From NCBI RefSeq assembly GCF_002854065.1, contig NZ_CP024150.1: DNA of 64,000 nucleotides. One strand, given 5' to 3'. Below are positions 8,901 through 11,900 of the stretch, in pieces. Position 1 is the stretch's first letter; every line of letters begins with the position of its first letter. The DNA comes from Escherichia coli. Its GTDB lineage: Bacteria; Pseudomonadota; Gammaproteobacteria; Enterobacterales; Enterobacteriaceae. Made by a program: the position numbers.

Positions 8901-11900
8901 CCATTCGGGCAAGGGGAAAATATGGTTCGCCGGACGGGGGATTGCCCCCGAGTGGCAGATGAAAAGGGAACTACTTTCGCCAGCTTATACGACTCGCTGG
9001 GCAGATATTCCTGCAGCGAAATTGACTTGAAATTGTGGCGATTTCACCTTGAAATTCTCAACAGAAATAGCTTAATTACAATAAGTTAGATGTGAAATCG
9101 CCGTGGCGAAGTTATTGACTCAAATTTCTATCAAGGACCTCGTTGATAGCTTTGTCCAGTTCATCCTGAACCACTTTTGACATACGGCTAAACTCATAAG
9201 TCAGCGTACGCCCTTTCACACGCTTGCGCGCGAACTTGTCCTTTTCATCAAAGGTCCAGAGTGCGGAAATTACTGACTTTTCCTTAGGAGGCGGAGCTAT
9301 CAATGCCTGAGAGGCCTGAGAAATCAATTTCAGTATACTGGCTTTCTGTTCGTCTTCTGGTCGCTCGTAGTCACTCAAAATTGCATTATGCTGATCTGAG
9401 ACAGATTGAATGAGCCCTTCAGACGTTAAGCCCTTTTCACTGAGTTTTTCATTAACCTCTAACAGAATTTTATAGTCACTAAACGACAGCTCAGACTGAA
9501 CCGGGAACAGAGAAATCAATTCTTGCGGTACTGCTGCCGCCTGCAGTGCCCTGGTGACCTTAGCCTGGGATAACCCCTCCAGTTCAGCAATTTCCTTTTG
9601 ATTGAATCCAGACTCTTTCAGAGCTATCAATCTTAAGCCGATCTCCCGAAGGTTATGCTCTTTAGCTGTCTGGATATCTTTAGCCAGATGGCGAGCTTCA
9701 TCAGCTGATAAAAGTTCAGCGGTAACCATTACATCAAGGCCTGTACGGATATAAATCGCAGAGGCTCGCCGTCTTGAACCATCCAGTATCTCAATCCTTT
9801 CACCTTGCTGAATGCCAATACAGGGGAAGAACTGCTGAAACTTAATAGTCTGGATAATAGATTTCAGAGACTCCCTGGTCAGAGCAAGTTGATCTCTTCC
9901 GTTGGTTTCCTGGTTTACGAATGTCTTACTTTCAACGTCCGATGCAGGTACCCGAACAAACCTGAAGGTTACCTTCCTGCCGGTTTTTAGGGTAAATACC
10001 TGACTTCTTTGGGTGTCAGTCATCTCGACCATTGACGCCTGGGTATTTAACTGTCTGCCAATGGTTTTTCTTTTCTCATTCGACATCACATACCTCCGTT
10101 AGTACGAATGAACTCAATGCGATCAAATACGGCCTTCGCAAAGTCTTCCGCTGCTGATTTTGCGCTTTTAAGCGCCTCGGTGCTTCCATCATAAGTTGCT
10201 GGATTTGCGGAAATAACTGTGTCAAAAGTCTCCCCGCAGCGCTCGAAGCCATCCAGCCTCGGCAGAACCATGTCGAGCATATCGGCACCGAATACCTCTT
10301 TGGCCTGACTATGGCAAATTTTGTGATCAGACTTGTTCAGGATTTTGGACATAAAACCGACGTTTCCGATGAGATTGCAGGTGTGTCCATCCTGTTCGAT
10401 CGAATCAATAAGCGCAGGAAGGCTGGCTACAAACTTCAGGGAAGAATGAAAATCAACCGTTGCCGGTGGAAGAGGGGTCAACATCAGGTCTGCCGCTCCG
10501 ATGCAGTTTTTCAGGAACGCATCGAGGTGAGGACCACTATCAAGGAAGATAAAGTCGTAGTCATACCGGAGCTTGTCGATAATGTTCTCTTTAAGCACTG
10601 CATGAATATTTTGCCCTGGCAGATGTTCCTCACACAATCCCTTCCAGCCTTCAGCAAGGAATGCATCATCAATTGAAGCGGGAATAACATCAACACCCGG
10701 GATAATTGACGGCACGATGAAATCGGACAGTAATTCTTCACGAGACACGTTCTGGAGCATGGCCTGAGCTGCCGTATTTTCAACCAGGCCCACTGAATTC
10801 TCATGGCTCAGGAACATTGTCAGAGATGCCTGCGGATCGAAATCGATGGCCAGAATACGCAGGTCTTCGAACAGAAGCTGAGGATGAGCCCGAAAAGCAT
10901 GGGATAATGAAGCGGTAGAAACTGTCTTGGAACCGCCACCTTTAAGGTTACATACAAAAATAGTGAAGGCTTTATCGAAGCGATCTCTGTACTTGGGTAC
11001 TTTACGATGGAAATACAGATCGATGACGTTCTGAATCGTCATCGCGTACTTCATCGTATTGCCGGAAGGTTTCTTTTTAAAAATGTAGCCACTGGCTTCC
11101 ATTTCGGCCACAGCATACTCAACACTCCCTTTGCTGAGCTTAGGCAGCTTATACAGGGCGGCTTTGCTGTATTCCTGATAGAACTCGGTAAGCTTCAATT
11201 CCTCTTTTTGCTGGCGGATACTTTCGCTCAAGGATGTCAGAAGTTTACCTGCACGTATGGCGACTTTCCGTAACTGCTCAATATTTTCCATTCTTCACCT
11301 CATGACATTTTTTGTCATTTTGAATAAAAAGAATCATGTTGCAAGAAATAATTCATAATATTTTGATTTTGTTCTCACAGAAGGCACCGAAGATTAAATG
11401 GAGAAGAGGGCACTACGTCCACAATCATTTTTTTGACCCACAGCGCAAACCGTGAGTCTGTTCAGAGCTTGCATCTGAGCAGGCGAGGGTTGGACAAGCC
11501 CGACGGGTGCGTCAGCCTGATACATTAAGGTATGTCCCTATGGGATGACCGAAATAGACCGGTCTGACTGAAGACGATCTGGCGCAGATCCGTCACTAAT
11601 CCCTCTATCCTGGCACTCCCTGTCTGGCCATCTGCGAATACTGGTGGGGCAGGGAGGCTCCAAACTCAAGCTCTGCCTGCCACAGCGATTAAACAGCTTC
11701 ATTACCCCCGCGAATTTTCCCGTCAGATGCGCAGTCAGGGGATTTATCTGTCGGCCGCTGTCGTCAAAAGCGACATCGAGGTTGGTCCATGAGAGATAAA
11801 TATCATTGACGCCCGCACTGAGCGCCACGGCATTCCGGCCGGATCATTCCCGATCGCTCAACAAACGGTAGTTGATCTTACCCAGCAATAGTGGACACGC

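What the first reader, a model, noticed from the sequence alone, without database searches (positions are those of the whole stretch)
9031..11291. P1-type parABS alongside R1-type parMRC and three toxin-antitoxin modules on one replicon
The window holds a type Ia partition system closely resembling phage P1 ParA/ParB with a parS-like site of heptamer and hexamer boxes, and separately the type II actin-like parMRC (62165-63654). It also carries HigBA-like and ParDE-like pairs and the DinQ-like type I candidate. This redundancy points to a cointegrate history of an IncFII backbone with a P1/P7-like or other plasmid segment.
Basis: partly seen in the sequence, partly recalled or inferred. Interest (0 to 1): 0.3.

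Follow-up and report, generated by a model that had tools for sequence, protein, structure and literature searches.

The report
Known pSLT-type (P1-family) plasmid partition locus
The region is an intact, well-known plasmid partition cassette, nearly identical to that of the Salmonella virulence plasmid pSLT and a cousin of phage P1's, carried on a mosaic E. coli IncFII plasmid that also has the R1 actin-like partition system and three toxin-antitoxin modules; this combination is already documented elsewhere, so it is ordinary.

Summary
Window 9027-11291 (minus strand) holds parA, parB and parS of the P1par (type Ia) family.

- **Proteins:** ParA is 69% and ParB 54% identical to P1, against about 25% to F SopA/SopB.
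- **parS:** it keeps P1's B1-A1-IHF-A2-A3-B2-A4 layout in identical register, and both BoxB hexamers are TCGCCA.
- **Closest relative:** this is the pSLT/IncR allele. ParA is 99.5% and ParB 97.2% identical to pSLT PSLT052/053. The cassette occurs in about 2,190 PLSDB plasmids and in 186 of 5,426 complete E. coli genomes.
- **Other maintenance parts:** parMRC is present (ParM 319/320 identical to R1 ParM, 5+5 parC iterons). So are a RelE/NadS pair, an RHH/ParE pair and DqlB with an AgrB-like antisense RNA.

The plasmid is an IS-riddled mosaic with duplicated leading-region genes and two relaxases. The par cassette, however, sits on a 7.5-kb fragment bounded by IS30 and IS3. That fragment matches the maintenance and leading region of Salmonella and Klebsiella F-like plasmids, not a P1/P7 phage-plasmid. 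No P1 RepA or phage genes are present.

Shigella pINV already shows the same set: a RepFIIA replicon, P1-family ParAB, type II StbAB and three TA systems. Interest is low.

The parts
10086..11291 (-). parA: type Ia partition ATPase, with an N-terminal HTH domain and the deviant Walker A motif KGGGSKT at residue 117
   Evidence: Pfam HTH_54 E=3.6e-37 and AAA_31. 69% identical to P1 ParA. Best PDB hit is P1 ParA 3EZ2, E=1e-190. 399/401 identical to pSLT PSLT052. Walker A motif located.
9112..10086 (-). parB: centromere-binding protein with the GSRRRA N-terminal box and a P1-ParB-type C-terminal DNA-binding/dimer domain
   Evidence: Pfam PF08775 E=4.9e-49 and TIGR00180. 53-54% identical to P1 ParB and 42% to P7. 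PDB 1ZX4/2NTZ (P1 ParB) E=2e-59. 315/324 identical to pSLT PSLT053. Asp at the column of P1 D288.
9027..9109 (-). parS centromere: BoxB1 TCGCCA, BoxA1 ATTTCAC, IHF-like site TAACTTATTGTAA, BoxA2 ATTTCAA, BoxA3 (inverted), BoxB2 TCGCCA, BoxA4 ATTTCAA
   Evidence: Gap-free alignment with the annotated P1 parS, with every box in the same register. Unique in the window with 0 matches expected by chance. All boxes identical to pSLT.
11292..11400 (-). par promoter/operator region (inferred); contains an imperfect palindrome at 11344-11375
   Evidence: Nearly identical to the region upstream of parA in a pSLT-like plasmid, and only loosely alignable to the P1 parOP. Palindrome found. The simple promoter scan was uninformative.
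4329..11872 (.). Imported block collinear with Salmonella/Klebsiella F-like plasmids (pol III theta-like gene, ardA, SRAP, umuDC, parBA), bounded by IS30 (CDS 2977-4128) and IS3 (11873-13131)
   Evidence: Megablast extents are 4329/4330-11534/11873 in Salmonella plasmids. Pairwise BLAST. Annotated contexts.
62174..62324 (+). parC: two blocks of five 11-bp iterons flanking the parM promoter region
   Evidence: Repeat family with 11-nt spacing; sequence read directly.
62339..63301 (+). parM: actin-like segregation ATPase
   Evidence: 319/320 identical to R1 ParM (PDB 1MWK, E=1e-212). Pfam StbA_N and the ParM C-terminal domain.
63301..63654 (+). parR: centromere-binding adaptor
   Evidence: Pfam PF10784 Plasmid_stab_B, E=5e-30. 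Annotated as a plasmid partitioning/stability protein.
17218..17886 (+). Toxin-first type II TA pair: RelE/ParE-family toxin (17218-17541) and NadS/HTH antitoxin (17590-17886), HigBA-like in gene order
   Evidence: Pfam PF06296 at 36 bits against a cutoff of 27; NF041265 NadS at 85 bits against a cutoff of 60. RefSeq annotation.
47984..48543 (-). ParDE-like type II TA pair: RHH antitoxin (48259-48543) and ParE toxin (47984-48259), next to the IncFII replicon
   Evidence: Pfam RHH_1 E=7e-11 and ParE_toxin E=2e-17. Annotation.
21759..22267 (.). Type I TA: dqlB toxin gene (21759-21854, -) and AgrB-like antisense RNA (22180-22267, +)
   Evidence: NF041473 at 72.8 bits against a cutoff of 35. Rfam RF02891 AgrB at 61.5 bits against a gathering score of 40.
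49455..50488 (.). IncFII replicon core: repA (49455-50312, -) and CopA antisense RNA (50397-50488, +)
   Evidence: Annotated as an incFII family RepA; tblastn. Rfam CopA at 85.5 bits.

Best explanation
Window 9027-11291 is an intact member of the P1par family of type Ia partition systems. Specifically, it is the allele carried by the Salmonella virulence plasmid pSLT and by IncR and F-like plasmids of Klebsiella, Enterobacter and Citrobacter.

**Inferred mechanism, by homology.** ParB dimers bind the BoxA heptamers through their HTH domain and the BoxB hexamers through their C-terminal dimer domain. This happens on an IHF-bent parS, and ParB then spreads to form the partition complex. ParA-ATP bound to the nucleoid is stimulated by ParB, and the resulting ParA gradient positions plasmid copies on either side of the division plane. 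ParA also represses the operon through its N-terminal HTH.

**Predicted specificity.** Both BoxB hexamers are TCGCCA, and ParB has Asp at the column of P1 D288. The locus is therefore predicted to belong to the P1 specificity and partition-incompatibility group.

**Origin.** The cassette reached this E. coli IncFII plasmid as part of a 7.5-kb fragment bounded by IS30 and IS3. That fragment comes from the leading/maintenance region of an F-like or IncR-like enterobacterial plasmid, not from a P1/P7 phage-plasmid. It now coexists with the backbone's own R1 parMRC (actin-like filament pushing) and three TA modules (post-segregational killing). This is the layered maintenance typical of large low-copy virulence plasmids.
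For: - **Family:** ParA is 69% and ParB 53-54% identical to P1, against 24-25% to F SopA/SopB. In an NJ tree the locus falls inside the P1/pINV subclade, sister to P7/pMT1, with F as outgroup.
- **Domains and structures:**
- **parS:** box-for-box register identity with the annotated P1 parS, far beyond chance.
- **Allele:** 99.5% and 97.2% protein identity to pSLT ParA and ParB, with identical parS boxes. Differences from pSLT are mostly synonymous in parA (24 synonymous, 2 nonsynonymous codons), which indicates purifying selection. parB has 10 synonymous and 9 nonsynonymous.
- **Specificity:** the column of P1 D288 is D wherever BoxB is TCGCCA (P1, pSLT-like pSe32, window) and also in pINV (B2 read as TCGCCT). 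It is R in P7 (TTCCCA) and N in pMT1 (TCACCA). BoxB2 is described as the incompatibility determinant in PMC10999674. P1 GFP-ParB forms foci in Salmonella LT2 only when pSLT is present (PMC4697819).
- **Origin:** homology extents and IS boundaries. The native context is oriT, leading region, umuDC/samAB, parBA in Salmonella and E. coli F-like plasmids, and repB-parAB-umuCD in IncR (PMC7707992). Only the par cassette matches phages. No second Rep was found.
Against: - Nothing was measured on this plasmid. Activity of the cassette here, IHF binding, ParA autoregulation and cross-reaction with P1 are all inferred.
- The operator region aligns poorly with P1, and the promoter scan found no strong sigma-70 match upstream of parA.
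- The region upstream of parA is cut by IS3 581 bp from the start codon. It also lacks the rpn gene present in pSLT, although the promoter-proximal 240 bp are conserved.
- With R1 parMRC present, the cassette could be dispensable.
- ParB is only 54% identical to P1 ParB, so full functional interchange is not guaranteed.
Confidence: 0.9

Rival explanations
1. One reading: the par cassette is the footprint of a cointegrate between an IncFII plasmid and a P1/P7-like phage-plasmid.
For: The family relationship to P1 is real. P1-like phage-plasmids are common in E. coli.
Against: Protein identity to P1 is only 69% (ParA) and 54% (ParB), against 99.5% and 97% to pSLT. blastn of the 7.6-kb block against 50,697 phage records matches only parAB-parS. 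No P1 RepA homologue exists in the whole plasmid. The flanking genes (umuDC, ardA, SRAP) are collinear with Salmonella F-like plasmids.
Confidence: 0.03
2. The cassette is a passenger. It hitch-hiked on the IS-bounded fragment and is silent or redundant, while segregation of this plasmid is carried by R1 parMRC alone.
For: The cassette lies on an IS30/IS3-bounded fragment away from the replicon, and its upstream region is truncated by IS3. The parMRC is complete and essentially identical to R1. In pINV one of the two systems dominates depending on temperature (PMC6519299).
Against: Both ORFs are full length. parS and the promoter-proximal region are intact and nearly identical to the functional pSLT locus. 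The same 2.4 kb is 100% conserved in six E. coli plasmids of different sizes from humans and pigs.
Confidence: 0.12
3. The locus is an F SopABC-type system rather than a P1-type system.
For: There are weak NCBIfam hits to the SopA and SopB models.
Against: Those hits score 59.5 bits against a cutoff of 725 and 62 bits against a cutoff of 274. Identity to F SopA/SopB is 24-25%. There are no sopC-type 43-bp repeats; instead there is a P1-type BoxA/BoxB parS.
Confidence: 0

Closest known systems
pSLT parAB-parS (Salmonella Typhimurium virulence plasmid, PSLT052/053)
   Same: ParA is 399/401 and ParB 315/324 identical, and all parS boxes are identical. The convergent samAB/umuDC neighbour is the same, with its stop codon inside BoxA4. 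The pSLT locus is experimentally required for stability (PMC5065971).
   Different: The host replicon differs: an E. coli IncFII mosaic rather than IncFII(S)/FIB pSLT. The rpn gene upstream of parA is missing, and an IS3 sits 581 bp upstream.
IncR plasmid backbone repB-parAB-umuCD (e.g. pYDC676, pHN84KPC)
   Same: The parAB-parS-umuCD module is the same. ParA is 97.8% and ParB 91.4% identical, and both BoxB hexamers are TCGCCA (PMC7707992).
   Different: The IncR RepB gene lies directly upstream of parA in IncR plasmids. It is absent here. BoxA4 has diverged in the IncR copy.
Phage P1 parABS (prototype type Ia system)
   Same: Operon order, ParA and ParB domain architecture, and the parS box order and spacing are all shared. 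BoxB is TCGCCA in both, and the Asp at the D288 column is conserved.
   Different: Protein identity is only 69% (ParA) and 54% (ParB). The operator sequence has diverged. The cassette is not linked to a P1 RepA replicon or to phage genes.
Shigella flexneri pINV/pWR100 maintenance set (RepFIIA-like replicon, P1-family ParAB, type II StbAB, three TA systems)
   Same: The overall architecture matches: one FII-type replicon, a P1-family type I system, a type II actin-like system placed far apart on the plasmid, and three TA modules (PMC6519299). pINV ParA is 67% and ParB 53% identical to the window's.
   Different: The alleles differ. pINV StbAB is only about 33% identical to R1 ParMR, whereas here ParM is 319/320 identical to R1. 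pINV parS has an atypical layout. Its TA families differ (CcdAB, GmvAT, VapBC).
R1 parMRC (type II)
   Same: ParM is 319/320 identical. ParR belongs to the same Pfam family. There are 5+5 11-bp parC iterons.
   Different: None of note.

Membership tests
P1par family (type Ia ParABS) | Large ParA of about 400 aa with an N-terminal HTH domain and a deviant Walker A ATPase | tested here: met
   PF18607 E=3.6e-37; AAA_31; KGGGSKT at residue 117; 69% identical to P1; PDB 3EZ2 E=1e-190.
P1par family (type Ia ParABS) | ParB with a P1-type HTH and C-terminal BoxB-binding dimer domain | tested here: met
   PF08775 E=4.9e-49; PDB 1ZX4/2NTZ E=2e-59 over residues 138-323.
P1par family (type Ia ParABS) | parS immediately downstream of parB, with BoxA heptamers and BoxB hexamers on two arms around an IHF site (B-A / A-A-B-A) | tested here: met
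   All six boxes are in the same register as the annotated P1 parS. parS starts 5 nt after the parB stop codon.
P1par family (type Ia ParABS) | Groups with P1, P7, pMT1 and pWR100 rather than with F SopAB | tested here: met
   Identity matrix and NJ trees for ParA and ParB, with F as outgroup at 24-25%.
P1par family (type Ia ParABS) | IHF binding and bending of parS | not testable with these tools
   Only a sequence resemblance is available: TAACTTATTGTAA lies at the position of the annotated P1 IHF site TAACTGACTGTTT.
P1par family (type Ia ParABS) | Autoregulation by ParA at an operator overlapping the promoter | tested here: inconclusive
   The HTH domain is present and there is an imperfect palindrome at 11344-11375. 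Sequence similarity to the P1 parOP is poor and the promoter scan gave no clear site.
P1par family (type Ia ParABS) | Actively stabilises a low-copy replicon | not testable with these tools
   Shown for the 97-99.5% identical pSLT locus (PMC5065971), not for this plasmid.
P1 specificity/incompatibility group within P1par | BoxB (especially B2) is TCGCCA, with a matching ParB discriminator residue | tested here: met
   B1 and B2 are both TCGCCA. Asp is at the P1 D288 column, where P7 has R and pMT1 has N with different BoxB sequences. The rule is stated in PMC10999674. The residue number D288 comes from my own recollection of Dabrazhynetskaya et al. 2009, which is not held in the library.
P1 specificity/incompatibility group within P1par | Experimental cross-recognition and partition incompatibility with P1 | not testable with these tools
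   There is an indirect hint: P1 GFP-ParB forms foci that depend on pSLT being present (PMC4697819).
R1-type ParMRC (type II) | Actin-like ParM, a ParR adaptor, and an upstream parC with two blocks of 11-bp iterons | tested here: met
   ParM 319/320 identical to PDB 1MWK; PF10784 E=5e-30; 5+5 iterons.
F SopABC (type Ia, Sop branch) | SopA/SopB equivalog scores and sopC 43-bp repeats | tested here: not met
   NF010259 scores 59.5 bits against a cutoff of 725. PRK13698 scores 62 bits against a cutoff of 274. Identity is 24-25%. No sopC-like repeats are present.
DinQ/AgrB-type type I TA | A small hydrophobic toxin ORF with an antisense RNA | tested here: met
   NF041473 at 72.8 bits against a cutoff of 35; Rfam AgrB at 61.5 bits against a gathering score of 40, on the opposite strand about 330 nt upstream.

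The most novel reading that the evidence does not exclude
The parS has P1's BoxB and ParB has the P1-type discriminator Asp. This widespread pSLT/IncR-type cassette, about 2,190 plasmids including this enterotoxin-gene-bearing (ETEC-like) E. coli plasmid, may therefore sit in the same partition-specificity group as P1 and Shigella pINV. It would then act as a plasmid-borne barrier, through incB-type incompatibility, to stable lysogeny by P1-like phage-plasmids. P1-like elements would in turn destabilise such plasmids. On a plasmid that also has parMRC, the barrier would cost the plasmid nothing if its own ParABS were titrated.
Probability: 0.4. Interest if true: 0.3.

Novelty: already known. 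Interest (0 to 1): 0.1.

Why it matters
It matters little as a discovery. The locus, its family, its centromere grammar and its coexistence with a type II system and several TA modules are all documented, in pSLT, IncR plasmids, the P1par literature, pINV and pB171. The plasmid itself is in RefSeq.

The useful outcomes are corrective. The donor was an F-like or IncR-like enterobacterial plasmid, not a phage-plasmid. There is also a testable prediction: this very common cassette shares P1's partition specificity. That is relevant to the coexistence of P1-like phage-plasmids with virulence and resistance plasmids, and to anyone using P1 ParB/parS as a DNA-labelling tool in strains that carry such plasmids.

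Tried and rejected
- **Primary P1par papers.** I tried to read Dabrazhynetskaya et al. 2005 and 2009 (PMC1196149, PMC2632008). Neither is held. The BoxB/ParB rule is therefore cited second-hand from PMC10999674, and the residue number D288 rests on my own recollection.
- **F plasmid accession.** AP001918 is not in the collection. I used NC_002483 instead.
- **Second replicon.** I looked for one that could belong to the par cassette. tblastn with P1 RepA, F RepE, pMT1 RepA and IncR RepB against the whole plasmid found nothing. The PLSDB label 'IncFIA' stays unexplained.
- **Promoter and terminator scan.** The scan of the par region gave counts at shuffle level and no convincing parA promoter.
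- **parOP alignment.** Alignment to P1 showed little conservation, so the operator is only inferred.
- **Co-occurrence count.** I could not count how many plasmids carry both the pSLT-type parABS and parMRC, because hit lists are capped at 60 rows. One independent E. coli F-type plasmid examined over its first 50 kb (NZ_CP081784.1) showed parAB without parM.
- **IS3 flanks.** These are only partly consistent with a simple inversion model: one pair of triplets fits and the other does not. I did not pursue this.
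Full report
**What the window is.** The 64-kb window is collinear at 99.7-100% with E. coli plasmid p2017.06.05CC_1 (NZ_AP027791.1, 109.8 kb, circular). The only structural difference is one missing ISApl1 copy. The replicon in the window is IncFII. repA lies at 49455-50312 (-), a CopA antisense RNA at 50397-50488 and a copB-like gene upstream, preceded by the remains of an F-type transfer region (traI, traX, finO).

**Checking the observation.** On the minus strand, parA (10086-11291, 401 aa) is followed by parB (9112-10086, 324 aa). The parB ATG shares a base with the parA stop codon.
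- ParA has the ParA-specific N-terminal HTH domain (PF18607, E=3.6e-37) and a Walker-type ATPase domain with KGGGSKT.
- ParB matches PF08775 (E=4.9e-49) and TIGR00180.
- The best solved-structure relatives are P1 ParA (3EZ2, E=1e-190), P7 ParA (3EZ9) and the P1 ParB-parS complexes 1ZX4/2NTZ (E=2e-59).
- The 81 bp between parB and the convergent umuC are entirely parS.

When parS is aligned without gaps to the annotated P1 parS, every element falls in the same register. These are BoxB1 TCGCCA, five bases, BoxA1 ATTTCAC, an IHF-like site, BoxA2 ATTTCAA, inverted BoxA3, BoxB2 TCGCCA and BoxA4. The 20-nt core is identical to P1 and occurs once in the window, with none in 100 shuffles even at three mismatches. 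The left arm is likewise unique.

**Which family.** ParA is 69% and ParB 53-54% identical to P1. The figures are 56% and 42% to P7, 56% and 41% to pMT1, and 67% and 53% to the Shigella pINV proteins. Identity to F SopA/SopB is only 24-25%. Neighbour-joining trees of both proteins put the window's proteins with pINV and P1, sister to P7 and pMT1, with F as outgroup. NCBIfam Sop equivalog scores are an order of magnitude below their cutoffs. The locus is a P1par-family type Ia system.

**Which member.** It is not a P1 or P7 allele.
- ParA is 399/401 and ParB 315/324 identical to PSLT052 and PSLT053 of the Salmonella Typhimurium virulence plasmid pSLT. All parS boxes are identical, and the convergent samAB (umuDC) neighbour is the same.
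- The IncR backbone module repB-parAB-umuCD is the next relative, at 97.8% (ParA) and 91.4% (ParB) (PMC7707992).
- Megablast finds the 2.4-kb cassette in 2,192 PLSDB records: 1,383 Klebsiella, 452 Salmonella and 141 Escherichia. It is also in 186 of 5,426 complete E. coli genomes, almost always on plasmids. Six of those copies are at least 99% identical, from human and pig isolates.
- Against pSLT, parA differs at 24 synonymous and 2 nonsynonymous codons, a pattern of purifying selection. parB differs at 10 and 9.

**Mechanism (inferred by homology, not measured here).** ParB binds BoxA and BoxB on an IHF-bent parS and nucleates the partition complex. ParA-ATP on the nucleoid, stimulated by ParB, positions the plasmid copies, and ParA also represses the operon. 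The operator is only inferred. An imperfect palindrome lies upstream of parA, but similarity to the P1 parOP is weak and the promoter scan was uninformative.

A more specific prediction follows from the centromere grammar. In this family the BoxB hexamer, above all B2, and a C-terminal ParB residue set species specificity and partition incompatibility (PMC10999674). Here both BoxB hexamers are TCGCCA, as in P1. In the ParB alignment the column of P1 Asp288 is Asp in the window, the pSLT-like pSe32 ParB, pINV and P1. It is Arg in P7 (BoxB TTCCCA) and Asn in pMT1 (BoxB TCACCA). Consistent with cross-recognition, P1 GFP-ParB forms foci in Salmonella LT2 only when pSLT is present (PMC4697819). The cassette is therefore predicted to be in the P1 incompatibility (incB) group. 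This has not been tested for this plasmid.

**The rest of the finding.**
- parMRC is confirmed. ParM is 319/320 identical to R1 ParM (1MWK), ParR matches PF10784 (E=5e-30), and parC shows two blocks of five 11-bp iterons upstream of parM.
- The 'HigBA-like' pair is a RelE/ParE-family toxin followed by a NadS/HTH antitoxin.
- The 'ParDE-like' pair is an RHH antitoxin overlapping a ParE toxin, beside the replicon.
- The DinQ-like candidate is DqlB (72.8 bits against a cutoff of 35). Rfam also finds an AgrB-like antisense RNA on the opposite strand just upstream, which completes a type I module.

**The interpretation.** The plasmid is indeed a mosaic of several backbones. It has MOBF and MOBP relaxases and second copies of ardA, umuD(C) and dqlB elsewhere, along with many IS elements. 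The par cassette, however, does not come from a P1/P7-like element.
- Against 50,697 phage records, only parAB-parS of the 7.6-kb block finds matches, at about 67% DNA identity.
- No homologue of P1 RepA, F RepE, pMT1 RepA or IncR RepB exists anywhere in the plasmid.
- Window 4329-11872 (a pol III theta-like gene, ardA, an SRAP peptidase gene, umuDC, parBA) is instead collinear with Salmonella F-like plasmids. There this module lies at the far end of the leading region next to oriT.
- The block ends at IS30 on one side and at IS3 on the other.

The best reading is IS-mediated capture of a fragment of an ordinary enterobacterial F-like or IncR-like plasmid. No replicon from that donor survives.

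**Comparison with what is known, and novelty.** A RepFIIA-type replicon carrying a P1-family ParAB, a distant type II StbAB/ParMR and three TA systems is exactly the maintenance set described for Shigella flexneri pINV. pB171 also carries type I and type II loci (PMC6519299). pSLT, IncR and the P1par literature cover the cassette itself. Nothing here departs from known kinds, and the plasmid is already in RefSeq with these genes annotated. I rate it 'already known', with low interest. The only modestly interesting residue is the prediction that this very common cassette shares P1's partition specificity.

**Limits.** No experiment bears on this plasmid directly. The primary P1par specificity papers were not available. 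I could not compute how often the two partition systems co-occur across databases.

Noticed in passing
window 22180-22267 (+) and 21759-21854 (-): Rfam finds an AgrB-like antisense RNA (61.5 bits against a gathering score of 40) just upstream of, and on the strand opposite to, the dqlB toxin gene. The type I module therefore has a recognisable antitoxin RNA. A second dqlB copy (78% DNA identity) lies elsewhere on the plasmid, outside the window.
   Followed up: partly
window 11873-13131 and 24479-25739: Two inverted IS3 copies bracket an 11.3-kb block carrying sodC, a NERD-domain helicase, DUF6710, the RelE/NadS TA pair, a resolvase and dqlB. The triplet left of copy 1 (AGT) is the reverse complement of the triplet left of copy 2 (ACT), as an IS3-IS3 inversion would leave. 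The other pair of flanks does not match.
   Followed up: partly
window 11447-11533 and 19064-19152: An 87-89-nt stretch upstream of parA recurs in inverted orientation (81% identity) next to the resolvase gene at 18327-18959. In a K. michiganensis plasmid and in pMT1, a homologous resolvase sits directly upstream of parA, so this may be a res site separated from par by rearrangement.
   Followed up: partly
window 9027-9033: The umuC stop codon (9028-9030) lies inside BoxA4 of parS. The whole gap between the convergent umuC and parB is centromere. This tight parS-umuDC/samAB junction is conserved in pSLT, IncR and F-like plasmids. ParB spreading could in principle affect umuDC expression; this was not tested.
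   Followed up: no
whole plasmid NZ_AP027791.1 (L001-L003): The PLSDB/MOB-suite typing lists IncFIA as well as IncFII, but tblastn with F RepE finds no homologue anywhere in the plasmid. Shigella pINV records are also typed IncFIA. The basis of that call is unexplained.
   Followed up: partly
window 1-2032 and upstream in L001 1-13033: A complete myo-inositol catabolism cluster (iolA, B, C, D, E, G, an ABC transporter and a MurR/RpiR regulator) sits on this E. coli plasmid next to IS30. Some of its annotated protein accessions look, from my recollection, like those of Enterobacter; this was not checked.
   Followed up: no
window about 27810-41000: A type IVb pilus gene cluster is present (major pilin, TcpQ-domain protein, secretin, PilO2, ATPases, prepilin peptidase, lytic transglycosylase, LuxR-type regulator). 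The same plasmid, outside the window, carries genes annotated as cholera enterotoxin subunit B-like and a microcin B17 cluster interrupted by IS2. This suggests an enterotoxigenic E. coli virulence plasmid.
   Followed up: no
window 11533-11551 versus L008 4491-5556: Relative to pSLT-type plasmids, about 1.06 kb carrying the rpn (recombination-promoting nuclease) gene upstream of parA is absent from the window.
   Followed up: no
L016 (NZ_CP081784.1) 11018-11311: An independent E. coli F-type plasmid with the same par cassette has a duplicated fragment made of the 3' end of umuC and the 3' end of parB. It probably therefore carries two tandem parS copies.
   Followed up: no
window 52621-52804 and 57735-57811: Rfam hits to the plasmid antisense RNAs AS-pc02 (229 bits) and AS-traI (104 bits) in the F-type backbone.
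   Followed up: no
window about 51875: The window lacks the 1,070-bp ISApl1 copy that NZ_AP027791.1 has at this position, so it comes from a close variant of that plasmid rather than from the record itself.
   Followed up: no
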